Shown here: in pieces, positions 35,870 through 58,653 of the stretch
Numbering within the stretch: the stretch's first letter is position 1
How the letters are laid out: every line of letters begins with the position of its first letter
Source: Eledone cirrhosa
Taxonomy: Eukaryota
Assembly (NCBI GenBank): GCA_964016885.1
Contig: OZ024741.1
Span: 267,034,001-267,098,000, forward strand
DNA: 64,000 bases
Reading direction: 5' to 3'
Position numbers and translations under genes: made by a program
Notes under the pieces: model-generated
The model's input: the letters and a program-made list of their open reading frames with translations, nothing else
What the model was told of the DNA's origin: nothing
Database searches by the model: none

Positions 35870-36224
35870 CAGTTGGGGGGGCATTATGTGTTTGAATGCT
35901 TACATGACTAGTGTGAATACTGAACTAGCTGTAGTCGCACTTGTTACGTAAAGGAAGTGAACTTCGCCCTATTTTTTTTGTTTGTTAATTTTATTAATCG
36001 CTTTAGTTACTTGTATTGTTTAGTTAGCACATATAGCCGTAGTTTTTACTAAGTATATCTTTGATTTATTTACCAAATAGGATATAACTTAGAATATATA
36101 TTACATAATATATACACTTGCTCAATATTTAGTCGTTACTTTTGACGTTAATTCCAGTTTAACAGGTAATTACGTTAACTTTTTTCTTTCGACCGTCGCT
36201 CACACACACACACACACACACTCA

Positions 36225-38725: not shown

Positions 38726-38746
38726 TCATTTCAGATTTGAGAAGTC

Positions 38747-38842
38747 ATGGCCATCTCCCAGGAGATTTGTGATATGATTGAGAAAGAGGTAGATGCTGGT
38801 CAACTTTTGAGTGAACTGAAAATCATCAACAAAATGACCAAA
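38747..38842 (+). CDS. MAVS-like gene, coding exon 1 (CARD-like N-part)
   Basis: Acceptor TTTCAG at 38734, GTCATGG start with upstream in-frame stop, 32 codons MAISQEICDMIEKEVDAGQLLSELKIINKMTK, donor GTAAGT (phase 0). Confidence 0.8.
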
Positions 38843-39114
38843 GTAAGTTTTAATATATCATCAACATTGTTTACATCTGTTTCTCTATTTCAAATAACAT
38901 TTTAATGTTACTGATTATTAGTGATTTTGTTTAGCCAAGGTCAGCCATGATCCAGGGGACCTATGATCTAAGGCTTTCTAACTGTGACCATCCCAACTTT
39001 ATTTACACAATCGATTATCAGTTGGCTTTGATGATGAGCATTCACTTATCCAGTCATCTGAATGTCCAGCTCATGAGTTAACATGTAAGTAGTTGAGTAT
39101 TCCACAGATTATAG

Positions 39115-39420
39115 TTATCAGCACTACCACTTTACAGAGTGTACTGGGTGTATTTTATCATGGTATCAGCACTACCACTTTACAGAGTGTACCGGGTATA
39201 TTTTATCATGGCACCAGCACTATCACTTTACAGAATGTACTGGGTGTATTTTACCATGGCACCATTAGTAGCACTTTACAGAGGGTACTAGATGTGTTTT
39301 ATCATGACACCAAAACTACCACTTTATCGAGTGTAGTGGATGTATTATATCATGGCACCGGTACTACCACTTTACAGAATTTACTGGGTGTATTTTATCA
39401 TGACACCAGCACTACCACTT
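39115..39420. repeat. ~48-bp minisatellite, ~6 copies
   Basis: CAGCACTACCACTTTACAGAGTGTACTGGGTGTATTTTATCATGG units. Confidence 0.9.
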
Positions 39421-39462
39421 TATTTTTTTTTAATTTATTTTTTTTTATTTTCTTTTTTTCAG

Positions 39463-39628
39463 GAGGAACTCGAGTGTTTCATTCTGAAGCATGGTAGTAC
39501 ACTTGGTATGAAGAAGATTTTAGAGAAGCTCCCTAAATATGACGATTGGCAGAAAAGTTTGATATTAGCACTCTCATCAGAAAACATAGGAAAGCCTAAA
39601 ATAGCAAAGAAATTTGCTAAGACAGTCA
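39463..39628 (+). CDS. MAVS-like gene, coding exon 2 (CARD-like C-part)
   Basis: Long polypyrimidine tract + CAG; EELECFILKHGSTLGMKKILEKLPKYDDWQKSLILALSSENIGKPKIAKKF; donor GTAAGT, phase 1. Confidence 0.85.
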
Positions 39629-39705
39629 GTAAGTATGGTCATGTGAGGCACATGGTCCTATGAGGTTATAGTAAATGGCAAATGGTCATGATACTGTGTA
39701 GAGCA

Positions 39706-40800
39706 GAGTTTCCCAAACTTTTTCAGGTTGGCGCCCCCTTGGCTTCCAGATAGATTCCTAGCGCCCCCTCTCCCAATATACACATGCGAGCTTTTTTTTC
39801 CAAAGTGAAAACAACAATATTAAACACAAAATATGTATTTCAAAAATAATAATTAATTCAATAAACCATTTTATTTGGTCTTCACAATTACCCCAATACA
39901 CACATGCAAGCCTATTTTTGTTTGTTTCAAACTGAAAACAACAATATTAAACACAAAATATGTATTGAAAAATACTAATTAATTTAATAAACCATTTTAT
40001 TTAGTTTTCACAATTACTTCTAATGGGATGGGTGTACTTGGTGTAGGGATATTAGTTTCTCCACATTAGGCTGGAACTCACTAAGAAGAAGTCGTAGATC
40101 CCCACGTTCGGTAATTTTAAGTCTGTTCCTTTGCTTGGAATGAAGCAAGGCAACTGCACTGAAGCCCCGTTCTACCAAATATGATGTTGGAAAGGCAATA
40201 AAATATATCTTCACCTTGTTCCATAATACTGGATAGAAGTCAGAGATTTTGTTTTGTAAGCAAAAATCTTGATATGATTTCTTGAACTTTGGCCTAAGCT
40301 CAATGTCGTTTTGGATTTAAACTAATTCTTCCTCTGCCTCTCCTGTTTCCTCACTGCTGACATCTAAGAATGGATTGATTACCCAGTCTGGTATTTTAAG
40401 CAATAAAAGATCCTGAAATCTTTCAGACATGTCTCTTTGCAACTCTTCCAGGTGAGCACAATACACTTGAAGGTCATCATCTGATATGCTCTTCTCTTGA
40501 TCCAATTCAGAAAGGCTTGGAAACTGGTAGAGTTCATGACGGGCTAAGTTTCATTTGAATAACTTACACTTAGACAGGAAGGTGGAGATAGTAAATTTGA
40601 CTTTGATAAGGTTGACATCATTTCCTTGCAACTGCAAATTAATTTCATTGAACTTTGTGAATATATCTGACAAATAAGATCATCACAGAGCCCAGAGTTA
40701 GAGTCTTGGAAAAATTCTACAACTGTATCAAACAGTGAATTCTACAACTGTATCAAACGTTTCAGGAAGTTTCCCTTTGACAGCCATCTAACTGTTATAC
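39706..40800 (-). mobile_element. hAT (Charlie/Buster-like) transposon 3' fragment
   Basis: TIR-like CAGAGTTTCCCAAACTTTT at 39706; FPTSYLVERGFSAV..RNRL..GDLRLLLS..QVHPSH* and ERFQDL..PDWVINPF. Confidence 0.85.
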
Positions 40801-41169
40801 AATGCAGTGCCAAGGGAAGCACTTCATAAAAGAATATCAGCGTCCTAAAGATTAAAATACCAATTCCTTATCCATGTTTTATCATTCATGCATTGTACAT
40901 CCAATGTCTACCTTATATATATATATATATATATATACCATAATCTACCTTATATATATATATCATTTCATCATCATCATCATTTCATTTTACGTCCGCT
41001 TTTCCCTGCTTGCAAGGGTGGGACGGGAACTGATTCTGGCTTGATTTCTACAGCTGGATGCCCTTCCTAACACCAACCTCATTTACAGTGGGTGCTGGGT
41101 GCTTTTTTGCTGTGGCACCTCCACGACCACTTTGCAGTGGAATGATATGGACCCTAGTCCCTATCATCT

Positions 41170-41310
41170 CATTTCTACAGCTGAGTAAACTGGAGCAATG
41201 TGAAATAAAGTGTCTTGCTCAAGGAAACAACACATCACCCAGTCTGAGAATTGAACTCACAACCTTTCGATTGCAAGGCCAATGCTCTAACCACTAAGAC
41301 ATGTGCCTCC
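41170..41310 (-). mobile_element. tRNA-derived SINE
   Basis: Minus strand: TCTTAGTGGTTAGAGC..GAGTTCAATTCTC..TTCCTTGAGCAAGACAC. Confidence 0.75.
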
Positions 41311-41334
41311 ATATATATATATATACATATATAC

Positions 41335-41367
<33 letters not shown>

Positions 41368-41483
41368 CATATATATAAGTATTGAAATTTCCGTTGGAAA
41401 CAGAAAAGGTAATAGAAATGACGAGTGCTCTATGTAAGTGCCAGAGCTAAATTTAATGTATAAAAATCAATACAATATAATTA

Positions 41484-41553
41484 CCTCATTACCAGAGGTT
41501 TCCCGAATGAGGCGAATACGAAATAAACGACTTCATTCGTTCGTCAGACGAGG
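41484..41553 (-). ncRNA. Type I hammerhead ribozyme, family H (left arm of palindrome)
   Basis: Exact reverse complement of 41882-41951. Confidence 0.82.
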
Positions 41554-41881
41554 CAATATAAAACATGGGTAAATACTTAGAAAAACTCATCAAGAAAATC
41601 AAAAAAAGATATAGACAAATGAAATAGAAATTGAAATATATAAAAATCTATCAAGAAATATAGTTAGGTGTGTGTATATGTATGTATATACGCACAACTA
41701 TACGTATACATGTGTGCATATACATATATGCACATCTGTGTGCGTATATACATACACATACACACACCTAACTATATTTCTTGATAGATTTTTATATATT
41801 TCAATTTCTATTTCATTTGTCTATATCTTTTTTTGATTTTCTTGATGAGTTTTTCTAAGTATTTACCCATGTTTTATATTG

Positions 41882-41951
41882 CCTCGTCTGACGAACGAAT
41901 GAAGTCGTTTATTTCGTATTCGCCTCATTCGGGAAACCTCTGGTAATGAGG
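41882..41951 (+). ncRNA. Type I hammerhead ribozyme, family H (right arm of palindrome)
   Basis: CCTCGT-CTGACGA-a-CGAATGA..TCATTCG-g-GAAA-CC tct GG-TA-ATGAGG. Confidence 0.82.
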
Positions 41952-42008
41952 TAATTATATTGTATTGATTTTTATACATTATATACATATATATACATAT
42001 ATACATAT

Positions 42009-42242
<234 letters not shown>

Positions 42243-42483
42243 AATGGCGAAAGACAGTTCAGAATTAAATCCAATTTGTAAATTTCCAATCATCATAGTA
42301 TTACAAATAAATAACTGCAGTTCAATACATTATTTAATTGATTTCCATATGTTTCATTCAAATACAGAAGGAGGTAGCATTTAATACTTTTGTACAGAAA
42401 TCGCCAGAATCATTAGATAATATAAAAAAGATATTTATTTACCGACCCTATGTTATTGTGACTCCAGACACAAGGATTTGGTA

Positions 42484-42602
42484 ATGGTGGTGGTGGTGGT
42501 GGTGGTCGTGGTGGTGGTGGTGGTGGTAATAGTGGTGATGGTGGTGGTGGTGGTGGTGATGGTGGTGGTGGTCATGGTGGTGGTGGTGGTGGTGGTGGTG
42601 GT
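42484..42602. repeat. (GTG)n microsatellite
   Basis: Direct inspection. Confidence 0.95.
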
Positions 42603-42736
42603 TTGTATTGAATTTTGTTTCTCTTTGCACAGCCAATCCTATGAGATATATATATACAGTTGTGGGTAGTGGATACAAATGAAAGAAAAGTGTGCAATCA
42701 ACACATAATCTAGAAGTTCAATATTAAGCATATATA

Positions 42737-42839
42737 CAGGCTGTCCCTCCAAAAAATGTATACATGCTTTGATTACCTGTACAGGCAATATTTATTAGAA
42801 TGTTGTTGAAGTGTGTATACATTTTTTAGCACACCCTGT
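42737..42839. mobile_element. Tc1/mariner-type MITE remnant
   Basis: Imperfect TIRs CAGGCTGTCCC..AAAAAATGTATACA / TGTATACATTTTTT..CACCCTG, with TA on the left flank. Confidence 0.6.
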
Positions 42840-42844
42840 GTATG

Positions 42845-42909
<65 letters not shown>

Positions 42910-42911
<2 letters not shown>

Positions 42912-44500
42912 TCATCATCATCACCGTTTTACATCTATTCTTCCATGCTAGCATGAGGTAGACGGGTTGTCCTGATGTAGGCAGTGCCCGGTCGCTGACC
43001 TTGTCTTGCTCATACAGGAACTGATTCTGGCTTGATTTCTACAGCTGGATGCCCTTCCTAACACCAACCTCACTTACAGTGAGTGCTGGGTGCTTTATTT
43101 TCCATGGCGCCTACATGACCACTCTACAGTGTGGGCTGAGTGCTTTTTTGCCATGGCACCTCCACAACCACTTTGCATTGGGAGGGGGTGGGGGCATATT
43201 GTCTATATGCTTCAGCTTCGGCTTGTATCCATGGGAAGTCAGGTCTTCTGTATTACTGCGTGACGCCAGAGGTCACAGTACTCTCATTGCCTTTGAGAGG
43301 TGTAATTGGGTAAGGTCGGCTTTTATCACCTCATTCCACGTCTTCTTGGGTCTCCCCACTCCACGGCTTCCATCGACTTCTAGTGCTCTGCAACTTTTTA
43401 TGCAGCTGTCATCCTTTATACGCATCACATGTCCATACCAACGCAACCTCCTTTCCTGCACACAGCATTTGATTCCTCTGATGTTCAGTCTCTTTCTCAA
43501 TTCATTTATGCTTTGCCATTCGCGTATATTACTATTACACATCCACCGGAGCATGCAGGCTTTATTTCTTTCTAATCTACGCAAGTCTTCTACAGACAGC
43601 GCCCAGGTCTCACTTCCATGTAACATTGCTGTTCATATGCATGCATCATACAGTCTGCCTTTCATTTTGAGGGAAAAGCCTTTTTCAGCTAGCAGTGGCA
43701 GTAGATCCCTGAACTTCTTCCATCCCGTTCTTACCCAAGTTATTGTACTTTCTGAACACCCACCTCCGCTGCTAATTCGGTCACCTAGGTAGCAGAAGCT
43801 GTCTACTGTTTCTATAGAGCCCTCCCAGAGTTTGGTGGTGCTTGTTTCCTGTGGCCGTTTGCTGCTTGCTGTCCCGGTGCAGCTGCTACATGTAAAGTCT
43901 ACATTCTTAGCTAAGCTTCCTGAGATCCCACTACATCTCTTGTGTACCCATTGTTTGTATTTGGGGCAGAAAATGGAGTTCCTACCTAGACCTTTCCTAC
44001 ATACTGAGCAAGGTCATTTCCCTGAGGGGATCTGGGCTCTGTTTTCTCGTCTACTCACAAGACCTTAGTCTTTGTCAGGTTGACTTTGAGACCCTTTCTT
44101 TCTAGTCCCTGCTTCCATGTTTGGAATTTCTTCTCTAGTTCCACCATAGATTCAGCTATAAGCACGAGGTCATCTGCATACAGGAGTTCCCACGGGCATC
44201 CGGTCTTAAACTCCTCTGTTATTGCCTGCAATACTATAATGAACAGGAGAGGGCTAAGAACAGAGCCTGGTGGACACCGACCTGTATGCTAAATTCCTCG
44301 CTATAATCATTGTTAACACTAACTTTGCTGACTGCTCCCCTATACATGGCTTGTACAGCTTTCACTAACCATTCATTTACTCCTAGTTTTCTAAGCGCCC
44401 ACCAGATTATAGCACGAGGGACTCTGTCGAAGGCTTTTTCAGATCGACAAGTGCCAAGTAGAGCACCTTACTTTTAGCTAGGTACTTTTTTTGTAACTGG
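42910..44500 (-). mobile_element. RTE-X-like LINE 3' portion with (GAT)n tail
   Basis: KAFDRVPR, LLYADDL, Cys-rich insert, MLHGSETW..RRLRWYGHV..GRPKKTW. Confidence 0.85.
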
Positions 44501-44611
44501 GACAATTCCCATCTAACCCATGCTAGCGTGGAAGATAAAGATAGACGTTAAATAATGATGATGATGATATATATCTATATATATGAATATATATATACAT
44601 ATATATATACA

Positions 44612-44649
<38 letters not shown>

Positions 44650-44837
44650 GGTTTGCTGGTTCACCACTGGATAGAACTGGTCATTCCGTATGGTCAACCT
44701 CGATGTAATATTAGGGAGAGCACTCAACGTAATGCAACTCACCCGTCTTCGTTTGTGTTGTTGGTGGTGCGAGTACAGAGTTAATTATTATAAAATAACA
44801 GGAGGCTGGACTGGTGTAAATCCTTAAAAGGTTTATT

Positions 44838-44895
44838 ATACCAAGATCATTTCAGTGACCGGGTTCAGTATGAATCCGGTGACATCATCAGGTAT
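44838..44895 (-). ncRNA. Hammerhead motif related to family C, cleavage triplet mutated
   Basis: ATAC-CTGATGA-tGTcACCGGaTTCA tac TGAAcCCGGTcACt-GAAA-TGATCT-TG-GTAT; G at the H17 position. Confidence 0.6.
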
Positions 44896-46109
44896 TCGAA
44901 ATTTAACAAAGGAATATAATAGACAAAATCCTGAAAAGCAGATACAGGAGGGCGGCCAAACATTTAGCAGCTTCTAGCCCGGTCAGCCGCCCTCAAGTGA
45001 TGATTATTAAGTCTTATGTCCTTCTGGTGAAGGGGCGTAGGCTCATAGTGTACTACTACCAACCCGTTATAGACAGAGGCCAGCGGTGAGATACATTTAA
45101 GCTCTTCCATCCTCTATATCTATATGTATAACCTTGTATTCTCCAACCGTGCTATCTATTGTTCTTTTACTGCACCTTTCTTCTGTATTTTGATTTCTTT
45201 GATATGTTTTTATATGCCCCCCCCCCCCCCCCCCCCCCCCCCCCACCGCAAGGTGGTCGTGGAGGTGCCACGGCAAAAAAGCACCCAGCCCACACTGTAA
45301 AGTGGACGTGTAGGCGCCACGAAAAAGCACCCAGCACTTACTGTAAATGAGGTTGGTGTTAGGAAGGGCATCCAGCTGTAGAAATCAAGCCAGATCAGTT
45401 CCTGTATGAGCAAGGCATGGTCAGCCGACCAGACACTGCCCACAACAGGACAACCCGTCTAACCCATGCTAGCGTGGAAGAACGGACGTAAAACGGTGAT
45501 GATGATGATGATGATGATACTTCTATTTTACTCCCTCAATTACCACCCAAGGTATGACTGCATTTTATTTATGCATTTTATTTATGTTTTTATTTATGTA
45601 TTTATTTATTCACTTTACTCTCCTTATATACTTATCCTTGTACTCATCTGTTACCTAAAATTAACACACGACCCTAGAATATTACTCTCTGTACACTTTA
45701 TATCTGTTTATCTTTATTCACTCCCCCTACCCACTCAAGAATCACACTACATATAACCCGGACTAACTGGGGACTAAATATAGTCTATTTACACATTTCA
45801 TTGGATTTTGCCACTTTTAAACTTCACATCACGTGTGTGAATAACTAATACTCGGAATTAACTAAATAATTAATAATCAGAACAATATATAGAAAAGTAA
45901 GTCCAAAGAATCATTAGATAAAATATATACAGTATTTCCTCTCCCAATCAGTATAAATCAACCACAAAAAATCATTTAAACGAGGCAATAAGTTTAAAAT
46001 GTACTTATGAAGAAATTGCTCTGATTATTAATTATTTAGTTAATTCTTCATTGTGCCACACTGTGAATGGTTGGCAAAAACATATATATGTATCTATGAC
46101 TTTGTCTAG

Positions 46110-47405
46110 TTTATATATATATGAAAGGCAGGTTGTACGATGCCTGCATACGAACAGCAATGTTGCACGGCAGTGAGACCTGGGCATTGTGTGCAGAGGA
46201 TATACGCAGACTAGAGAGAAACGAAGCTTGCATGCTCCGCTGGATGTGTAATAGTAATATATGTGAACGGCAAAGCATAAACGAACTAAGGAAAAAATTA
46301 GAAATAAGAGGGATCAAATGTTGTTTACTCGAGAGAAGGCTACGTTGGTATGGACACGTGATGCGCATGAAAGTCGATAGCTGTATAACAAAGTGCAGGG
46401 CAATGAAGATAGACGGTAGCCACGGAATAGGCAGACCTAGAAAAACCTGGGACGAGCTGATAAACTCCGACCTCACACACTTACACCTCTCCAAGACAAT
46501 GTCACTGGACCGAGACCTTTGGCGGTACTCAGTAATAGAGAAGACCCGCCTTACCTAAATACATAGTAAAACCTACTACAGTCAGTAGGCATCTCTAACA
46601 AAATACACCCCCGTCCCACCACCCCCACCCCATCCACACCGCCCCCTTCTATGTAAAGTTATGTTGGTGCCACACCATCCAGGCCGAAACAAATGAGATT
46701 GTGTAGGTGTCACGACAAAAACACCTTAACCACACCTGTATCTATAGCTAACACCTTAACCACACAGCCATGTCTGTATCTATAGCTAACACCTTAATCA
46801 CACAGCCATGTCTGTATCTATAGCTAACACCTTAATCACACAGCCATGTCTGTATCTATAGCTAACACCTTAATCACACAGCCACACCTGTATCTATAGC
46901 TAACACCTTAACCACACAGCCACACCTGTATCTATAGCTAACACCTTAATCACACAGCCATACCTGTATCTATAGCTAACACCTTAATCACCTTAAGACC
47001 CGCCTTACCTAAATACAAAGTAAAACCTACTACAGTCAGTAGGCATCTCTAACAAAATACACCCCCGTCCCACCACCCCCACCCCATCTACACCGCCCCT
47101 TTCAATGTAAAGTTATGTTGGTGCCACAACATCCAGGCCGAAACAAATGAGATCGTGTAGGTGTCACGTCAAAAAAACACACAGTTCACGCTGTAATGTG
47201 GCCGTGTAGGCAATACGGTAAAAACCTCCCAGCCCCACACTGTAAATGTGGTTGGTGTTAGGAAGGGCATCCAGCTGTAGAAAACCCGCCAGATAGTCCT
47301 ATGCGAGCAAGATAACCACTCTTGCCTCAAGTGGGAAAACCCTCCGTCCAAACCCATGCAAGCATGGAACACGGACGTTAAACGATGATGATGATGATGA
47401 TGATG
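46110..47405 (+). mobile_element. RTE-X-like LINE 3' fragment with duplicated 3' UTR and 38-bp tandem array
   Basis: ORF 46121-46558 (MLHGSETW, RRLRWYGHV); 46541-46730 repeated at ~46995-47175; ~7 x 38-bp units at 46720-46995; (GAT)n tail. Confidence 0.85.
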
Positions 47406-47610
47406 ACCCTTTAAATTAAATATATACTCCCGTAAGGTTGTATACTTTAGGCAGTATTCGGCTGCGCTTTCTAGCAACCAACCTACTCGCCGACAGGCAC
47501 CAATCACAAACTTTCTACCTTGACCACTGGCCACGTGATGATTCTTAGCCATTTTGAATTCATTTCTGGCGGGGTTCATTGCAGAAAAAATCTTAGACCA
47601 AGTGAGGTAT

Positions 47611-47695
47611 ATCTCCTGATGAGTTCCAAACCGCGTTGATTTATCCAAGATCGGATATATCCAAAAAGTGAACGAAACCACCAGGTGGTAGAGAT
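47611..47695 (+). ncRNA. Type I hammerhead ribozyme, family I (canonical, GUA site)
   Basis: ATCTC-CTGATGA-GTTC..GAAC-GAAA-CCAC cag GTGG-TA-GAGAT; all three stems Watson-Crick, G10.1-C11.1 present. Confidence 0.92.
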
Positions 47696-47985
47696 TATGA
47701 AGATTTTGGTAAAGTTTATGTACAATTTTTCTTCTAACTTCGATATTGTACCTAATTACGTGTAGTTAACTATATGTCTAGTCAATTTCTACAGGCTAGA
47801 AGGAATATTAGGTAAATATTTTGTAGATGTACGTCACGGAAAAGGAGCTATATCATTTGTCTATTATTTCTTCATAAGTACATTTTAAACTTATAGTCTT
47901 GTTTAAATGATTTTTTATGTGGTTGATTTATACTGATTGGGAGAGGAAATACTGTATATATTTTATCTAATGATTCTTTGGACTT

Positions 47986-48015
<30 letters not shown>

Positions 48016-48016
<1 letters not shown>

Positions 48017-51000
48017 CATCATCATCATCATTTTACGTCCACTTTCTCTGCTTGCAAGGGTGGAATGGGTCCTATTCACCACAGCATCTCTCCACTTGTC
48101 ACGGTCCTTCGTCATCTCCTCCGTGAGTTTCAGTGACCTGAAGTCTGCTCTCACCACCTCCGCCGATGTTTTTCGTGGTCTACCTCTATTGCGTCCTCCT
48201 TCTACTGGAGCATGTTTGCCTTATTTCTCTCCAGCCGTCGCATATCTTCTGCAGTTGCTGCTCATGTCTCACTACCATACAGCATCGCGCTCCTCCCACA
48301 GGCATCATATAACCGGCCTTTCGTATGCAGGGAGAAACCCTTTTTCATCAGCAGAGGACGCAGCTACCTAAACTTCTTCCAACCCGTCCTTATTCTAGAT
48401 ACTATGGTCTCGGAACCCCCCCCCCCCCCTCTGATCTCCTAGGTACCAGAAGCTATCAACCACTTCTCTAGCACCTGCCTACATTTGAAAAATGTGTCTA
48501 TTAATGCGACTTCTACTGTCTAATTTCCCTGTACATCTACCGCATACGTATTTCTCCCTACCTGTTAGTTTGCCTGCTATCCCACTACATCTCTTGTGTA
48601 CCCAAGATCTACATTGTGTGCATTTTATAGAATTTATGCCAGTTCCTTTTCTGCATATCGAACATGGCTATTTCCCTGACGGAATCAGAGTTTTGTCCTC
48701 TTTTCTACTCATCAACACTTTTGTCTTAGCTAGGTTCACTCTCAGTCCTCCTGATTCCAACTGCTGTTTCCATAGCCAGAATTTATTCTCTAGCTCCTCT
48801 ACTGATTCTGCTATAAGAACCAGATCGTCAGCATAGAGAAGTTTCTATGGACAGCCAGTCTTAAACTCCTCTGTTATGGCTTGGAAGACTATAATGAACA
48901 AGAGCGGGCTGAGGACCAAACCCTGATATACTCCTACTTGTATCTGGAATTCCTCACTAACTCCATTCCTACCCTGACTTTACTGAGAGTACCTCTGTAC
49001 AAAGTTTGCACTGTCATTACAAGCCATTCCTCAACACCTAGTTTCCTTATGGACCACCAGATGACAGATTGGGGTACCCTATCAAAGGCCTTCTCTAGGT
49101 CAACAAAAGCTAAGTATAGTGGCTTATTCTTCTCAAAGAACCTCTCTTGTAATTGTCTCACCAAGAAGAGGGCATCTGTTGTACTTTTCCCAGGCACAAA
49201 ACCAAACTGCATCTCATCTAGTTTGACCCTTTCTCTAATTAGTTGTGCTAATATCCTTTCTGCTACTTTCATAACCTGATCCATCAGTTTTATACCCCTA
49301 TAATTGCTCTTCTTCAGAGCATACCCTTTACCTTTGTAGAAATTTATGAGAATACTGCTGTACCAGTCTTTGAGTATGGCACCACCATATATAGCCTGAT
49401 TGATGATGCGTGCAACCAGTTTAGTGCCTTCGTCCCCTGATCTCTTCATCATCTCAGCAACTATCCCTGATGGTCCAGCGGCCTTACCATTTTTCATTTC
49501 CTTAATCGCCTCTTGGACCCTTTATTCATCAATCTCAATAGTGGTCCCTCAGTCGGATCTACTGTGGGTAATTTCTCTCTCTCATAATGACATTTCCACG
49601 CCACCTTTTTCCTTTCATTCGTGACACTAAGTACACCGGCACCATTCCGGACACATTTATCTCCAACAACATCCTGATTTGCATTGACACACTGCCTTGC
49701 AATGTGGAACACTCCACGTCTCTGATCTTCCCGTTGCACAACATTGGCAAACCTCCTACTCTCAGCCTCCCTGCGTGCTAAGTACACCTGACGTCTAGCT
49801 TCTCTCTTAGCGGCTGTATATCCTTCTCTACTCCCACCATTTTTCCAAGCCTTCCATGCTAGTCTTTTGTCTCTAATGGCCCTAACTAGCATGCTGTTCC
49901 ACCACCAAGTTACTCTCTGTCTGGTTGGAGCTCTTCTCCAGCCACAGGTTTCTTCAGTAGCCTGCAGTAAGTTGTCACGTAAGAAATTCCAGTTATCATC
50001 TATGTCATACGACTCTAAATCATCTTCTTTTCCATCATACACATCTTGAAGGGCTTTCCTAAATTTGAATTTTAGTGAAAAGTCTTTTAATTTCCAGACC
50101 TTTCTTCTCCACACCTTCCTGTATGTCTCATTCCGTCTCTTGCTTACTGAGATATCACTAACGACTAACCTATGCTGTGGGGTACATTCTTCCCCAAGGT
50201 ATTCCTTGGTATTTGACACCATATGCCTGTCCTGCTAGGAAGTCAATCTGGCTTATGTGCTTGCCTGATTTGTAGGTTATTAGGTGGTTGGCAGGTTTCT
50301 GGAAGTTAGTGTTGCAAAGGGTTAGTGTACTTGCATTACAAAATTCAAGAAGTCTCACTCCTTCTTCATTTCTTGTGCCATAACCGTGCCCACCATGTAC
50401 CTCAGTGTAACCATCCTGGAGCTGTCCAACATCACCATTGAAGTCCCCTGCTAGCATAACGATGTCTCCATCCTCTGTCATTGCGGCTGTTTGTAAAAGT
50501 TGCTCGTAAAAGCAGTCTTTCTCTTCTTTACTTAGGCCTGCGTGGGGAGCATAGGCAGAGATGATTGTCAGTAGTCTCTTACCTACAACTAATCTAAGCT
50601 TAATTATTCTATTATTAACTCAAACTACCTCTATTGTCTTATTGATCCATCTCTCAGCCAGGAAAATGCGTACTCCCCTTAACCCATCATCCTTACCTAC
50701 CCAGAAAATCTTATAACTAAGATGTTTGCCTGCGATTAGTCTCGCAGAGACACCTCTCCATCTCACCTCTTGCACGCAACACACATCCACATGCCTTCTC
50801 TCCAGCATCTCCACTATCTCACCAGATCTACCTGTGAGAGTGCCAACATTAAGTGTGGCAACTCTGAGATGCGATGTCGTCATATTCTTGTTCCTTTTCC
50901 TATAGTGCGATTGCTTGAAGACGGTCGGGGGGTTCTCGCACATGGCCGCACCAGCCACCCCACTACCGTACGCAGCCCTAACATGGTTAGTGTTTTTGCT

Positions 51001-51460
51001 GTTTACGCAGTTATTGCGATATATATTTGTTGTTGTTCTCAGAATTGTTTTGGCTTTGATACACTGGTTGGATGCCCTTCCTAACACCAATGCCACTTTA
51101 CAGCATGGACTGGGTGCTTTTATTCGTGCCAACAGCACTAGAGAGGATGTCTTACTGGACTCATGGGCCCTCTATTAACTAATGCAATCGTGCAATGCCT
51201 GTGCTTGAAGAATATTTTTAAAGTGAGGAAAGACTGTGCATTGAGCCAATCCCACTCTCTGAGCGACAGTAGCTATAACCCGAAAAGAAGAAAAGATCAA
51301 CATCATCGGTAACTACTGAGTCACAGGTTTTATGTCGGAGTTAACCCAGTTTCCTAAAATGCCTTCTCTTAGAAGAATGCTTTGACAAGGGCTAGGAGTC
51401 CTTCACTCCCAGTGGTTTAACTGCGTGATCGGGTATCCAGCACAATTATTTCTATGTCCC
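48016..51460 (-). mobile_element. Near full-length RTE-X-like LINE, decayed
   Basis: ATLNVGTL, VQEVRW, AGDFNG, PQHRLVV, GKAAGPSG, NYRGIKL, QFGFVPGKST, VDLEKAFDRVP; (GAT)n tail at 48016-48031. Confidence 0.9.
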
Positions 51461-51547
51461 CGCGCAAAAAAAAAAAAACCCCTAACCCTAACCCCTATAT
51501 ATATAAATATATATATATATATACATGAATATGTATATATACAAGAG

Positions 51548-51584
<37 letters not shown>

Positions 51585-51599
51585 GAATATATATTAAAT

Positions 51600-53215
51600 T
51601 TTGAGTCGGTGCTGGTTGTTTACTGACACCTCAGTATGCAGGTTGGAGCACTCAACGAAGTGCGCAGGTTGGTTTGTTTCCTCTGGAGTAATGTAAAAAT
51701 AAGAAGTGTAAGTCAACAGGGTAAAGTTAGCTATATATATTTCAGTGATAGCCATTATTCAACAGCTATGACCTCATCAGGCAGTAAGAATTTAAACAGA
51801 AAAAAACAGGAAAACAATGTTGTAATGGATTTTGCCATGTTAATTCATTGATATGCCCAGCTCCTGGGTGTGTTGTTAGTCCTCTAAGGAACTGGAAGCA
51901 TATGATTAAGAATGAACGAATTTCAGCGGTCAAAGGATATGCCCCACCTCATTGGTCAGATATCATACTTCCCCCAGCCGAACATCTATTGAAATTCTTC
52001 AGAAACAGGTCAGCCTGTTATTATTGCTTTTAAATGCATGTTCTACTCCGGTTGACCTACTTCACTGTGATGGTAGTGGTAGTGGTGTGAGCAGGTCAGT
52101 TAGTGGGTCAACTACAATCCCCTCTTGTGTTGTCAAGAAGAATTTATGTATGTAGACTGATAGAGTTCAGTGCTTCTCTTTACCACTAGGTCTCATAAAA
52201 AAGTGTACAATCCATATTTTAAACATTTAGTGCATACCCGCAAATGTCCGTTAACGTACACCATTGCATGTACACACGTATAAAAACAAGCCTAAGTGCA
52301 TTCACAAATCCAGATCCACACATCTGTACACATACATGCACGCATACACATAATTACATATACACACATATGCGAATACGCACACATGCACACAGGCTCA
52401 AAGGTCCCTGCATGGGGTGGGGAGAGAAGTAATAGGTGTGTCCTATTTGCTTGTAGTAGTTAGTACTGACTCTTGCATGCGAAAGGGGTCAGGTTTGAGG
52501 TAGCATATCTTTCAGATAATTGGATCACAAGCTGGGGTTGGGTGGTGAGGCCTGGTGGTCAGAAGTGTGGGGTGCCTGGTTGCACACAGGGTAGGACTCC
52601 GCTCACGTACATTGCCTTGGTAATTATCTAGTGTCCGCTAACTTGGGTTCAAGTTATGGAAGTGAGAGAGAAGGGTGGACCACAGCGGTATGAGACACGG
52701 TTCTAGCTGCTAAGTAAGTGTGGTGTTATAAATGCTATTCAAGATGAGAGGAAAGGGAGGAGAGATAGGTATAGGGGGTGGGATTGGTGTCCCGGGGGCT
52801 CAGTGTGATGGGGTTGCTATCCATATAGCTTGAGGGAAGTTCCCATCCTAAGGGGCTGCTATCTATATAGCTTCAGGAAAGTTCCCATCCTAAGGTGTCT
52901 ACAGATACCAAAGAAATCAGTGCTAAGGTTGATTAGGTTACTCCCACCACTGAGTATCTCCAGAGTCTCACTCAGACAGAGGTTTGAGATGCCATATCCC
53001 CTTCCATCAGGTGGCACCTCCCTAATCTTGGATCAGACCAAAGAGTACGGGGTCTTGTCCAGCTTGAGCTTCCAGATCAGTTCGAAAAGAGCCGTACATT
53101 TCCTCTTATCTATCCTATTTAAAGAATGGCGGTGGTTATACCATCTGTCCTTGAAGCTCGTCAATGTGGTTCCTATGTAAAGGTGCTCCGAGTTGAGGGT
53201 TGTAACTTTGCAACA
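51600..53215 (-). mobile_element. Penelope-like 3' fragment (GIY-YIG + 3' repeat with HHR)
   Basis: Minus strand ~53210-52880 reads CKVTTLNSEHLYIGTTLTSFKDRWYNHRH..ELIWKLK..NLCLSE; 3' repeat resembles 44650-44900. Confidence 0.8.
51730..51782 (-). ncRNA. Minimal hammerhead ribozyme, family C
   Basis: GC-CTGATGA-GGTcATAGCTGTT..AATGGCTATcACT-GAAA-TATATA-TA-GC; stem II covaries with the 20464 copy; stem I short. Confidence 0.75.
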
Positions 53216-54759
53216 TCGGAGTCACATCGGAGCTTCAAAGACATGGTATAACAACCGCCATTCTTTAAATAAAATAGACAAGAGGAAATATTCGGCCCTT
53301 TCCGAACTGATCTGGAAGCTCAAGCTGGGGTCAGCCTAAAGTTCTATAAAAATATAGTGGACGGGACAAGGTGGGGGGAGGATTCAGAACTAGAACCTAA
53401 AAAGTTTTAAGTTAAGATTAAAGATTAAAAATATAAAATTTAAAAATTTAATTAAAGAATTAGGAGAAGTAAGCATTTATGTAAAAATTAAATATATCTT
53501 TGATAGTCACATTCTATCACTGTGTGTTTGTGGTGTAGGGAAATGGGTGTGGCTTGTCTTTCGTTAGCCACTGAAATAATGGCTTCACAGTCATCATAAG
53601 CCCACAAACACTTCCAAGTAAAATCTCATATCAGGAATAGGGAAATTTCTATTATTTCCAAGCATTCCAGGAAACGCTCACAGGTTCATGCCCCACATGG
53701 CTAGTGCAGTTGGCTGGTGAAGCAATGTATGTCAGACAGTTATTAGTTATAAATACTAGTTATGTTAATGATTCTAAAGATAGAGTAGTGTAAAACTGGG
53801 ATGTAAAATAACAAAATAAAATAAAACTAACTTAAACTAGATTAGATCATTATCTAGCTTTGGGTTCTTTGCATTGATCGATATTATATTCCTAGTGGTA
53901 TGAAATAATTTGGAACTACATTATATAAAGGAGTGCGGTTTGGCGATCAATAATCAATGAAGTGATGATTTCCCGGCCTACCCAAGGCTCAAGGGCCTAC
54001 CAACCGTTCCGAGTATTTTTGTCTTCCGAAAGAAAGGGAAATTTATTTTTCCAAGCACTCCAGGAAGGTGGACAGACCCAGGTGCTGCAAGTTCAAGTAA
54101 GAAAGCCATCACAGCTGGTCGTTTATCCAATGTATACCAAATGATTATTATTTATTCATATCAGTGATGTGAATAATAGAGTCATAGGAAAGCTTAAATG
54201 TAGTAAAATTTAATGAAATAGTAGGTAAAGAAACTATTCTCAAGCTAACCTGGGTTCCGTGTGTTGTTTGGTTTTGAATTCATATGGGATATAATCCCAT
54301 CCCACACTATAATAAATATAGGTGAGATATATATATATACCTTAATACTACAACGTACTTCTCTATGTAATTATTATAATATGGGAACTATATCGCATGG
54401 TACATGTTGAGTGAATCCTAAGTGGGGGGGGGGGGGATAATTAAATGAATAAATAGATATAAAAATGGTTGATAAATATGTGAGAGAAAGATTTCTTGCA
54501 GCGGGGACATGTGATATCTTGTAAGGGTTACTGGATAACGCTAAAGTCAGGACAAGTGAATTCAGGAAAAAAAAAAACAGTATAGAAAGTAATATTCTAG
54601 TATAGTTAAATAAGTTTAGGTAACAGTTGAGTAAAACCAAGGGTAAGTCTATAAAGAATATAAAATGTAATCATACACAGAGTGGTAATCATAGGAGTAA
54701 GAATGGAAGTAAATAAGAAAATATCGAAGAAATAATAAATAAATGCAAATTAAAGTGTA

Positions 54760-55070
54760 TCTAGAGGGCACTTGCTACTTACTGCACATAAAATCTGGCA
54801 CATAAAATCTACATTCTTAGATAGCCTGCCCGTGATCTCACTACATCTTTTATGTACCCATAGTTTGCATTTGGGGCATAGAATGGAATTTCTACCTACT
54901 CCTTTCTTACACACTGAGCATGGCCATTTCCCAGAGGGCACCGGTCTCCTATTTTGCTTTCTACATACTAGAACTTTAGTCTTAGACAAGTTAACTTTAA
55001 GGCCTTTTGATTCTAGGCCATGTTTCCATGTTTGGAATTTCTTCTCTAGTTCAGCCATGGATTCAGCTGT
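54760..55070 (-). mobile_element. RTE-X-like LINE internal fragment
   Basis: LESKGLKVNLSKTKVL..GKWPCSVCKKGVGRNSILCPKCKLWVHKRCS. Confidence 0.8.
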
Positions 55071-55774
55071 GGAGGGCTTGCCAAACAAAGGGTCGGGATG
55101 ACCCTTCAATCATGTTAAGGACATGACAGCCCTCCTAGTGTTGGTTATCTACTCAATAAATGTACTCAGTATATGCTGTAAAGTGGTGGGTAATCGGTAG
55201 AGAATCCAGCAGTAGAAAGCTTATCAAACGAAGGGTTTGGAGGACCCTTAGTTGTGTCAAAAACAACAACCTCCCCTGTGTATTTGGTAGAATGTGAGAC
55301 TGTACATAAGCAAAATAACAGATCCCTGGTCTGTCTGGGAGATCAGTAGCCACTGCTTCAATACTGACTTGCTCTATGTAGACACATCCAACCCTTGCTA
55401 GCAGAGAAAGTGGATGTTAAAACGATGATGATGGTATATATATATAATATTAACTGCTTCAAACTGTTGAGAAGTGTTAAATATAATGTTTTGGGCTACA
55501 GCCTTCTTCAAGGAAACAAAATAATATTGAGAAAATATAGAGAAAAACATAGTAAAAGAAAGGTTAACAAAGATTGTCACATGTGTTTTAAATGCCATTG
55601 TTCTCCACTAAACTCTTTTCTTTTCCACTAATCTAGGTTGAATGAAATGCATGGGGCCTAATGATTAGGCTGTTGAACTCATGACCCTAAAAGTTGTAGA
55701 TTTGGTTCCTGAGCTGGGCATTATCAAGTGTTCTTGAGCAAGCTGCTTCATTTTACATTGCTTTTCATGATAGG

Positions 55775-56065
55775 ACTAAAGACCCCTATTGTTAACACAC
55801 CCAACAAACCTCCTTGGAGATACAGTCCCGTAAGAGACCATCTAAACCTACATACATATGAGCTGTAACAACAACATTATGATAGGATTGGGTCTCCTCT
55901 CATTAAAACACCCAAGGAACCTCCTATGAAATGTAACCTCACTGGATGCTTGTTAAGCTTACATAAGTGTGTGCTTTAACATGATATGACTGGGGCTCCT
56001 ATACTTAAAACACCCAAAAAACCTCTTATGTGATACAACCTTGTAGGAGGCCAGCTAAACCTGCT
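55775..56065. repeat. Degenerate ~100-115-bp tandem repeat, ~3 copies
   Basis: Recurrent AACACCCAA..AACCTC.T..GATAC..CC..TA units. Confidence 0.55.
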
Positions 56066-56106
56066 GAGTAGTGATTTGTAAATTTCATTTTTTCATTTCA
56101 ATTTAG

Positions 56107-56229
56107 ATAAAACAAAGGAGCATAGACTTGATGACTTGCTCTGTACCATGGATTACTTCTCTTGCCTAGAAAACTTAAATGACCCCCCTTATTTGAGGCA
56201 TAACTGGAAGGATTTGGCTAAAGAACTTG
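56107..56229 (+). CDS. MAVS-like gene, coding exon 3 (start of Death-like domain)
   Basis: Acceptor TTTAG, 123 nt, phase 1-1, KTKEHRLDDLLCTMDYFSCLENLNDPPYLRHNWKDLAKEL, donor GTAAG. Confidence 0.82.
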
Positions 56230-57285
56230 GTAAGATCCTTTCTATTTTTCTTAGTATAGTAGGTTATTGTTTATCCCCTGTTCAGTTCTGAGTTGGCAGA
56301 CAAATGAAGGTATTCCAACTCTGACCATGACATCTTTTATTCACATATATATATATCTCAGACTATATTATCTAATATTTTCATCAACGCACATGCTCAC
56401 TTGATAAGACAAAGATAGATGTTTTTTACCCAATTGTTTCTACTTTTATTTACAGTGATAGAATATTTTTCTGTGTGTCATAAGAGATGAGTAAAAGGGC
56501 TGGCACCAAGAAGGGCTTCTAGCCATAAGACATTGTTCCAAAAAGGCTCCCATAATGAATATGAAGCCCTACAAGGGACCTTTCTTTAGAAGGGAAAAAT
56601 GGCTTTAACATTTTTGCTGTTGTTGTATTTGTTATATTTTCTGACATTGTCCACTGTATTAGTCACTATACCTCAGTAAAACATATTGTCAACCTAGCAT
56701 CACATTATTGTCTTGCTATACACTAATATTGCAATGTTCTCAGATGTACTGTTTAGTGCACCAACTACATACACAGTAATTACATCATCTAGTGCACTAA
56801 TGCCAATAGATAATTTTGATTTACTGTTTCCTATATAAATTTTGGTCATACAAGAAGCGTAGGAGGATCTGAGGTAGGCCAATGAAGCTTGTAGACTTTG
56901 TATGCCACAGATGCACTGAGAGTTTACGAGGAATAGTTTCTCTCCAATATTCAGACAGCTTTGTAGAAGTAGTTGATAGTTTTTGTTACCTGTGTAACTT
57001 CATTAGCAGTGGTGGTAAATGTTCTGAAAGCATAGTAAATACCAGTTGAAAAAAGTTCAGCGAGCTCTAACCACTACTGGCACAAAGGAATTATCTGTGA
57101 GTGAAGGGTACACTGGAATCAGATGTAATGTGCATGTGAGAGGATTATGCTGGTATGGACAGTGTGTATGAAGGATTATGTCAATTTATCAATCCAGTAT
57201 ATTATGAATTTTTTAAAAAAAATTTGGAAATTTGTTTTAATCTTTTGTCATTGAGTTCTCTGATTTGTTTTCTTCATGCCACAAG

Positions 57286-58184
57286 ACTTCACTCCAAAAC
57301 AAATATTGGATATAAGTAAATTTGATGGGAACTTTATGCAGCGTGTGATGAAAATATTGGCAGACGACAGATTTGAAGTACTTAATTATCTTTTATTAGC
57401 ATTGAAAAGGCTTAATCTTGAAGAAGAATACAAGTGTGTGTTAGTACAGGCTGGATTGAAACATACATTCCAACATACATTGCAACACAACATACAAGGG
57501 GCCACTTCACAAAGAAATCACCGAGCTGATTCTCCAAGTACTTCACGAGAGATGAATGACCAGAAAAATAAGCTAAAATATTTCAATCAAACTACGAAAA
57601 GCTCAGAAAGTACTAAAAAAATCAATAATGTGCATGACCAGAGAGATGGGCTAATTAACACTGAAAAAGATGTGGAAACAATACCAGTGTCACAATATCA
57701 AACTTTTAATAATGAACCTACTGAAAGCAACTCCAATATTTCTGAAGATGAAGACAACAATATCAATACATCTGAACATCTTGAAAGCACCTCCAACGCT
57801 TCTGAAAACAACGATAGCTTCAATATAGCTGCAGAAATTATACCTACTCCGTCTGTGGTAGACCCTGAAAAAGATGTGGAAACAATACCAGTGTCACAAT
57901 ATCAAACTTTTAATAATGAACCTACTGAAAGCAACTCCAATATTTCTGAAGATGAAGACAACAATATCAATACATCTGAACATCTTGAAAGCACCTCCAA
58001 CGCTTCTGAAAACAACGATAGCTTCAATATACCTGCAGAAATTATACCTACTCCGTCTGTGGTAGACCAAGATGTGACTTCATATATCAATCCTGGACAG
58101 GAATTTAATGGGGTTGCAATACCTTCATTGATCATTGGTTGTGTGGTAGGTCTGATCCTGGGTAGATATATGTTTAGTCGCTGA
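57286..58184 (+). CDS. MAVS-like gene, last coding exon (Death-like C-part, acidic linker with 68-aa duplication, C-terminal TM anchor)
   Basis: Acceptor AAG, phase 1; FTPKQILDI..LNYLLLALKRLN; ends GVAIPSLIIGCVVGLILGRYMFSR*; AATAAA near 58277 and 58458. Confidence 0.85.
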
Positions 58185-58653
58185 TCCCAAGATATCACAT
58201 GAAAACTAAAAGGGGAAATCTATAAATGTATGTATATATTATTACATTTATATATGTATATATATGGAGCCTACAAAATAAACCAATCAGAAGGCTGATA
58301 CATCTACTACTAGAACTTAATAAGAAAAGAGATTTATGTGTCTGCTGGAATCACAACTGGGTGGTAATGCATTACCAGCAACATATCTCAATGATTGCAT
58401 AATTACACCTATGATTGCATAAGCATCTGATGAAGTCACATGCATAACCATATAACAAAATAAAGCAATAAAGCAATTATGGTGAAATGATTCTGTCTTT
58501 ACTTTTATTTGATAAATGAATACTTCGTCATTCTTAATCTTCAACTCTTAGGGGGGATAAACTACTGGCGTGAAGTACTTTTGGATCGATCAGATTGGCT
58601 TATCCTCAAGAAGTCACAACGTAGCAACCACATAGAAGCAACTTATCTTCTGC

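What the first reader, a model, noticed from the sequence alone, without database searches (positions are those of the whole stretch)
38747..58184. Four-exon CARD + Death + tail-anchor gene: candidate cephalopod MAVS
Seen: exons 38747-38842, 39463-39628, 56107-56229 and 57286-58184 have canonical splice sites and matching phases (0,1,1), giving 427 aa. The N-terminal ~90 aa has a CARD-like pattern (..KILEKLPKYDDWQKSLILAL..G..IA), followed by a Death-like NWKDLAKELDFTPKQI..LLLALKRLN, an acidic Ser/Asn linker, and a hydrophobic C-terminal helix with flanking Arg. Established: MAVS has an N-terminal CARD and a C-terminal mitochondrial anchor, and as I recall bivalve MAVS adds a Death domain. Orthology is inferred from architecture only.
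Basis: partly seen in the sequence, partly recalled or inferred. Interest (0 to 1): 0.75.

Follow-up and report, generated by a model that had tools for sequence, protein, structure and literature searches.

The report
Octopus-type MAVS antiviral adaptor gene
This is a real, spliced gene in an octopus-like genome for a protein with a CARD-type domain, a probable death domain and a predicted membrane tail, likely the cephalopod version of MAVS, the adaptor that would relay the alarm from a viral-RNA sensor.

Summary
The gene is real. It encodes 427 aa. The N-terminal 90 aa match the CARD of this genome's own RIG-I-like receptor best among 48 death-fold domains (0 of 1000 shuffles reach the score); exon 2 hits Pfam CARD_2 weakly (E 0.016). 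A phase-0 intron splits the CARD at the register reported for salmon MAVS, assuming no gap over 17 residues, and not where the RLR's CARD is split. The Death domain is only weakly supported. There is one C-terminal hydrophobic helix with a +2 tail. The layout matches oyster and scallop MAVS. No database homologue was recovered, fold searches of half-domains were uninformative, and localisation and binding are untested. Verdict: likely MAVS orthologue (about 0.75), a new member of a known kind. This scan already noted the same layout in another octopus genome. My literature searches found no cephalopod MAVS described.

The parts
36000..36165 (+). Non-coding first exon (start is approximate: where the contig ends)
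   Evidence: 163-nt loose end of the exon1-exon2 contig maps to 36133-36162; GT donor at 36166; no ATG
38735..38842 (+). ATG exon; coding from 38747, aa 1-32, predicted CARD helices 1-2; phase-0 donor
39463..39628 (+). aa 33-87, predicted CARD helices 3-6 with the helix-5 Trp shared with the RLR CARD; phase-1 donor
   Evidence: Pfam CARD_2 E 0.016, 15.7 bits, below the 28.2 cut-off; 31% identity to the RLR CARD exon; four helices at pLDDT 64
56107..56229 (+). aa 88-128, inter-domain segment and start of the probable Death domain (Trp motif near 56199-56229)
   Evidence: junctions; Death profile match starts at aa 119
57286..57455 (+). Rest of the probable Death domain (about aa 129-185)
   Evidence: 58 columns aligned to an own-genome Death profile, 1 of 150 shuffles as high; four helices at pLDDT 72; no Pfam hit
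57456..58109 (+). Low-complexity linker: basic in aa 191-250, strongly acidic and Asn/Ser/Thr-rich in aa 251-400; predicted disordered
   Evidence: 2 K+R against 31 D+E in aa 251-400, Pro 7%
57661..58068 (+). Recent in-frame tandem duplication, 2 x 204 bp (68 aa), one mismatch
   Evidence: a collapsed contig at about twice the flanking depth in X2 and X3 and 1.5 times in X4
58110..58184 (+). Predicted tail anchor (aa 404-421, GxxxGxxxG) plus 6-residue tail with two Arg, then stop
   Evidence: only Kyte-Doolittle 19-residue peak above 1.0 in the protein, maximum 2.2
58185..58457 (+). 3' UTR, at least to 58457; polyA-type hexamers at 58277, 58459, 58467
   Evidence: X1 contig 58039-58457

Best explanation
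This single-copy, spliced gene likely encodes the octopod orthologue of MAVS, of the bivalve CARD+Death+tail-anchor type, predicted to sit on an organelle outer membrane and relay signals from the RIG-I-like receptor. Shown: the gene structure, splicing in one run, an RLR-class CARD by sequence, one C-terminal hydrophobic helix, and a CARD-bearing RLR and IRF genes in the same genome. Inferred from vertebrate and bivalve work: the tail inserts post-translationally, most likely in the mitochondrial outer membrane; RNA-bound RLR exposes its CARDs, which nucleate assembly of this CARD; the long linker holds the assembly away from the membrane; CARD and Death domain then recruit TBK1/IKK-epsilon-type kinases and TRAF or death-domain partners towards NF-kB and IRF.
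For: (1) aa 1-90 score best against the RLR's own CARD exon among 48 own-genome death-fold domains: score 66, Z 7.6, 0 of 1000 shuffles reach 66 against any target. The helix-5 Trp occurs in that column only in the query and that RLR CARD among 23 aligned rows. Pfam CARD_2 is the only family hit by exon 2. (2) Intron position: salmon MAVS has 123 coding bp before its first intron (phase 0, after residue 41) and residues 18-24 end in Val24 (PMC11187282 passages; frame check). Here the matching Val is residue 15 and the phase-0 intron follows residue 32: 17 codons in both. The split CARD-like exon of this genome's RLR has its donor 13-14 codons after that Val, in phase 1. Human MAVS has an exon limit after residue 97, the CARD end (PMC5536018 passage); here one follows residue 87. 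(3) The query lacks three residues between helices 2 and 3 relative to RLR CARD2, as MDA5 CARD1 does. (4) Oyster MAVS is CARD+Death+TM; scallop MAVS has the same parts and binds a TBK1/IKK-epsilon kinase. (5) The genome has one RLR locus with CARD_2, DEAD, Helicase_C and RIG-I C-terminal exons and IRF genes. Exons 2 and 4 each have one strong match in the genome.
Against: No homologue came back from three word-based searches or one full phmmer search, so there is no reciprocal hit or tree. Generic CARD profiles from own-genome domains do not score the N-terminus significantly (45 of 1000 shuffles; 27 of 150). Death support is weak: 1 of 1000, 22 of 1000 best-of-48, 1 of 150 with HH probability 3.7%, no Pfam hit. 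No TRAF6 PxExx-aromatic/acidic motif and no pLxIS motif, although oyster MAVS binds TRAF6. The tail has only +2 charge and an acidic upstream flank, so ER or peroxisome targeting is possible. The intron match assumes no gap in salmon residues 28-41, which I did not see. The recalled vertebrate neighbours (pantothenate kinase, AP5S1) lie on other contigs.
Confidence: 0.75

Rival explanations
1. A lineage-specific membrane-anchored CARD+Death adaptor, RAIDD/CRADD-like in function, that recruits a caspase to a membrane and is not in the RLR pathway.
For: CARD followed by Death is also the RAIDD layout (recalled). This genome has a cluster of intronless CARD+Death genes at C2:233.68-233.83 Mb and many caspase CARDs, so the combination is available here. 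No TRAF6 or pLxIS motif.
Against: None of the cluster's CARDs is among the top seven matches to aa 1-90 (its Death domain L036 ranks fourth, Z 3.3); the RLR CARD is first. The cluster genes carry both domains in one open frame that ends without a hydrophobic tail, whereas this gene has the MAVS-like intron.
Confidence: 0.1
2. A true MAVS descendant, or an RLR-CARD-derived gene, that now works as a regulator or decoy (CARD19/BinCARD2-like, recalled) or on a non-mitochondrial membrane, without activating signalling itself.
For: Very high divergence (no database hits), missing vertebrate signalling motifs, weak basic tail. Oyster MAVS did not activate NF-kB, IFN-beta or ISRE reporters in human cells, and the passages read place it only in the cytoplasm.
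Against: It is the only CARD+Death+TM candidate I found, and the RLR keeps its CARDs, so an adaptor is needed. Oyster MAVS knock-down raised virus mortality. The genome search scores few candidates, so a second adaptor is not excluded.
Confidence: 0.12
3. The helical N-terminal half is not a death-fold pair and the resemblance is chance.
For: Single-sequence models of the two half-domains matched no death-fold structure significantly; PDB sequence searches were blank.
Against: Only half-domains could be folded. Pairwise and Pfam signals agree on an RLR-class CARD, and the predicted helix spacing fits.
Confidence: 0.03

Closest known systems
Bivalve MAVS (Crassostrea gigas CgMAVS, PMC5557890; Chlamys farreri CfMAVS, PMC9879056)
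   Same: Order CARD, Death, C-terminal TM; no proline-rich region; CARD-bearing RLR in the same genome.
   Different: No sequence link could be shown here; Death domain very divergent; linker acidic with a fresh 68-aa duplication; no functional data.
Vertebrate MAVS (IPS-1/VISA/Cardif)
   Same: N-terminal RLR-class CARD split by a phase-0 intron at the salmon register; exon limit at the CARD end; C-terminal TM with basic tail.
   Different: Probable Death domain in place of the proline-rich region; no TRAF6 or pLxIS motif found; weaker basic tail than human MAVS (recalled).
RAIDD/CRADD and this genome's intronless CARD+Death cluster
   Same: CARD followed by Death.
   Different: Those in this genome lack a tail anchor and introns, and their CARDs are not the best match.
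CARD19/BinCARD2 (recalled, no call)
   Same: CARD with a C-terminal membrane anchor.
   Different: No Death domain and much shorter (recalled); not compared by sequence here.

Membership tests
MAVS, bivalve type | N-terminal CARD of the RLR/MAVS class | tested here: met
   Best of 48 own-genome domains is the RLR CARD, 0 of 1000 shuffles; Pfam CARD_2 E 0.016 on a half domain, below cut-off; generic CARD profiles not significant
MAVS, bivalve type | Death domain directly after the CARD | tested here: inconclusive
   1 of 1000, 22 of 1000, 1 of 150 shuffles; no Pfam hit on exon pieces
MAVS, bivalve type | Single C-terminal TM helix, short tail, no signal peptide | tested here: met
   Hydropathy scan only
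MAVS, bivalve type | Orthology to CgMAVS/CfMAVS by reciprocal hit or tree | tested here: inconclusive
   Exon-wise searches returned nothing; a simulation put exon pieces near the detection limit at about 40% identity
MAVS (all) | Phase-0 intron inside the CARD at the vertebrate MAVS position (supporting character) | tested here: met
   17 codons after the aligned Val in both salmon MAVS and this gene; assumes an ungapped register; human position near residue 39 is recalled only
MAVS (all) | Six-helix death fold | tested here: inconclusive
   Only half-domains folded without alignment; no significant structural match
MAVS (all) | Mitochondrial outer-membrane localisation | not testable with these tools
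   Tail GRAVY about 2 and charge +2 are compatible, not decisive
MAVS (all) | Binds RLR CARDs and is needed for dsRNA signalling | not testable with these tools
   A CARD-bearing RLR exists in the genome; binding not tested
MAVS, vertebrate type | Proline-rich region with TRAF6 and pLxIS motifs | tested here: not met
   Pro 2-7% by region, motifs absent; oyster MAVS also lacks the proline-rich region
RAIDD/CRADD | Soluble CARD+Death adaptor without a membrane anchor | tested here: not met
   C-terminal hydrophobic helix present; feature definition recalled
CARD19/BinCARD2 | CARD plus TM without a Death domain | not tested
   Recalled family; no sequence comparison made

The most novel reading that the evidence does not exclude
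Cephalopods keep a true MAVS, diverged past the reach of ordinary searches, whose CARD intron is shared with vertebrate MAVS. That would make MAVS a single gene inherited from the bilaterian ancestor, suggest that reported absences in gastropods may be detection failures, and complete an RLR-MAVS-IRF pathway in the animals with the most A-to-I editing, paired with an RLR that may carry four CARDs.
Probability: 0.5. Interest if true: 0.6.

Novelty: new member of a known kind. Interest (0 to 1): 0.43.

Why it matters
MAVS is shown in oysters and scallops and reported missing in abalone and Aplysia. In squid the RIG-I response to symbiont RNA was described with no adaptor named in the passages I read. 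A cephalopod MAVS supplies that link and gives a knock-down target. It also makes testable whether the heavy RNA editing of coleoids shields self RNA from RLR-MAVS sensing, as ADAR1 does in mammals (recalled). The intron position offers a way to find MAVS where sequence searches fail.

Tried and rejected
Homologue searches: exon 4 near-length, exon 2 longer, exon 4 first 70 aa longer and phmmer of exon 4 over 1.84 billion representatives all gave 0 hits; weak evidence, as only exon pieces were queries. ESM Atlas gave no answer. PDB sequence searches with exon pieces: 0 hits; profiles mixing exon 2 with RLR CARDs found MDA5 and RIG-I or unrelated chains, and MAVS was not among the 60 of 65 rows shown. 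Fold searches of half-domain models: best Foldseek E 3.0 and 1.2, best VIA Z 4.4 and 7.0, all generic helical matches; a MAVS CARD chain at rank 10, E 8.6, for the Death half is treated as noise. No RNA holder was listed by the run search; X1 was read as RNA from its joints. Synteny with recalled vertebrate neighbours: not found. STING search blank, and nothing rang in controls, so uninformative. One search used an overwritten CARD file and was replaced. No complex prediction was run: the CARD is split over two exons and the expected assembly is a filament. A retrocopy as source of the joined contigs is unlikely: one strong genomic match each for exons 2 and 4, and X2-X4 lack the exon 3-4 joint.
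Full report
Observation. The four stated exons have canonical GT..AG introns of 620, 16,478 and 1,056 bp, phases 0, 1 and 1, and give 427 aa. Four public runs of one study hold the last exon; none is on record as RNA. Contigs of X1 skip every intron: a 440-nt contig holds exons 1 and 2, and a 182-nt contig carries the last 30 nt of exon 2, all of exon 3 and 30 nt of exon 4. X2-X4 run through the introns like DNA. So the gene is transcribed and spliced as predicted, on the evidence of one run. The same contig extends 163 nt further upstream, and those letters map to an exon ending at 36165. The gene has five exons, the first non-coding, with no upstream ATG and an in-frame stop just before the start. 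Exons 2 and 4 each have one strong match in the 3.0-Gb genome.

Organism. The window is G000:C2:267,034,001-267,098,000. The cephalopod label is indirect. Of 14 exon lengths listed for Octopus RLR in the supplement of PMC8998645 (search rows), 5 were recovered exactly as exons with RLR content in this genome's RLR locus (393, 193, 163, 246, 168) and 9 were not; some of those lengths recur in other molluscs. Earlier scan notes on this genome also call it octopus-like.

The N-terminal domain. Exon 2 alone hits only Pfam CARD_2, at E 0.016 and below the cut-off. I collected 26 CARD and 20 Death matches from the genome plus two RLR pieces and scored the spliced aa 1-90 against all 48. The best was the CARD exon of the RLR, score 66, Z 7.6; 0 of 1000 shuffles reached 66 against any target. 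The alignment spans predicted helices 2-5, and the helix-5 Trp is shared only with that RLR CARD. The query is three residues shorter between helices 2 and 3, as MDA5 CARD1 is in the PDB alignments. Against this, profiles built from 18 and from 21 own-genome CARDs did not score it significantly (45 of 1000; 27 of 150). The signal is specific to the RLR class.

The second domain. A profile from 17 of the 20 Death matches placed a hit at aa 119-140 within an envelope of 114-185, with 1 of 1000 shuffles as high. Pairwise, the top two of 48 targets were Death domains, but 22 of 1000 shuffles reached the best score. HH-suite aligned 58 columns, 1 of 150 shuffles as high, probability only 3.7%. Pfam gave nothing for exon 3 or the start of exon 4. 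A Death domain is probable, not shown. Only half-domains could be folded: four helices each, pLDDT 64 and 72, with no significant structural match.

Linker and tail. aa 251-400 hold 31 acidic and 2 basic residues and include a 68-aa duplication with one base difference, seen as a collapsed, deeper contig in X2-X4. The only hydrophobic peak is at the C-terminus, about aa 404-421, with GxxxGxxxG and a six-residue tail holding two Arg; the N-terminus has no signal-peptide-like stretch. This is a tail-anchor layout. By recalled rules, moderate hydrophobicity with a small positive tail fits mitochondria but does not exclude ER or peroxisome. No TRAF6 or pLxIS motif was found; one TRAF2-type match lies at aa 398.

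Intron position. PMC11187282 (passages) gives salmon MAVS 123 coding bp before its first intron, inside the CARD, and names residues 18-24; its TALEN arms put Val24 in frame with the next three residues. The matching Val here, at the start of helix 2, is residue 15, and the phase-0 intron follows residue 32. Both introns lie 17 codons after the Val. This assumes no gap in salmon residues 28-41, which I did not see; that MAVS has the short helix 2-3 link, and that human MAVS is split near residue 39, is recalled. The one split CARD-like first half found in this genome's RLR has its donor 13-14 codons after the Val, in phase 1. A review places a human MAVS exon limit after residue 97 (PMC5536018 passage); here one follows residue 87, a weaker match because introns at domain ends are common.

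Pathway context. One RIG-I C-terminal domain was found in the genome. Upstream on the same strand lie Helicase_C, DEAD and two CARD_2 exons, one above the cut-off. Seven IRF exon matches were found. So the sensor keeps CARDs and needs a CARD adaptor. A separate cluster of intronless CARD+Death genes without tails lies at C2:233.68-233.83 Mb and is the main rival model; its CARDs are not close to this one.

Mechanism. Inferred from oyster (PMC5557890: passages and section 7) and scallop (PMC9879056: passages): RNA-bound RLR would present its CARDs, these would seed assembly of the adaptor CARD on a membrane with help from the TM helix, and CARD plus Death would recruit TBK1/IKK-epsilon and TRAF-type partners towards NF-kB and IRF. 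None of these steps was tested here. Oyster MAVS did not activate human reporters and is described only as cytoplasmic in the passages read, so the mitochondrial address is an inference even for the closest model.

What failed. Four database searches with exon pieces gave no homologue. A simulation gave mean scores of 28 and 36 bits for the two pieces at 40% identity, near or below what these libraries need, so the blanks show divergence or absence from the library, not novelty. Orthology to bivalve MAVS therefore rests on architecture, CARD class, intron position and pathway context.

Prior knowledge. Searches for MAVS with octopus (25 of 31 listed), with cephalopod and RIG-I (17 of 17) and with squid, cuttlefish, octopus, antiviral (25 of 1,014) listed no title describing a cephalopod MAVS. 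In PMC4199593 MAVS appears only in a figure legend, and the figure that marks present or absent could not be seen. In PMC7665748 and PMC10844198 the passages shown had it only in references. PMC11103948 and PMC9334734 (passages) report no MAVS in abalone and Aplysia. PMC8998645 (passages, section 6, supplement rows), PMC11874512, PMC4892480 and PMC8306335 (passages) gave background. Subscription journals, where such a report could sit, are not held. This scan has already noted the same layout in another octopus genome (e1-9913472), unreviewed and not independent support.

Verdict. A real gene and a likely MAVS orthologue of the bivalve type, confidence about 0.75; a new member of a known kind. 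Interest 0.43: useful for mollusc immunology and for the editing-versus-sensing question, but expected once bivalve MAVS was known.

Noticed in passing
G000:C5:78,831,776-78,922,011 (L008, L009, L011, L015, L017), minus strand: The single RLR locus found may carry four CARDs: two exons hit Pfam CARD_2, and two further exons look by eye like halves of CARD1-type domains, suggesting a duplicated CARD1-CARD2 pair. One expected exon was not found.
   Followed up: partly
G000:C2:233.68-233.83 Mb (L025, L026, L028, L031, L034, L036, L038, L047, L049, L052-L054, L056, L063, L064): Tandem cluster of intronless CARD+Death (RAIDD-like layout) genes in two sequence types and both orientations, some with stops.
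   Followed up: partly
window 35953-35961: GGAAGTGAA, an ETS or ETS-IRF-like motif (recalled consensus), about 40 bp upstream of the mapped start of the non-coding first exon.
   Followed up: no
window 57547: G>T difference in X1 and X4 contigs, second base of codon 216 (Arg to Leu); likely an allele.
   Followed up: partly
window 39599-39760 and 56263-57314: Low-depth X1 contigs run into intron 2 and through intron 3, which may be unspliced or intron-retaining transcripts.
   Followed up: no
G000:C17:40,544,243-40,544,956 (L039, L050): Two classical CARDs in one 271-aa open frame, joined by short repeats.
   Followed up: no
window 1-36000 and intron 2: Otherwise filled with decayed LINE-type reverse transcriptase/endonuclease and GIY-YIG (Penelope-like) fragments and long TA repeats, judged by eye from the ORF list; no other host gene seen.
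   Followed up: no
G000 whole genome: No STING_LBD match, but controls were also blank, so absence is not shown.
   Followed up: partly
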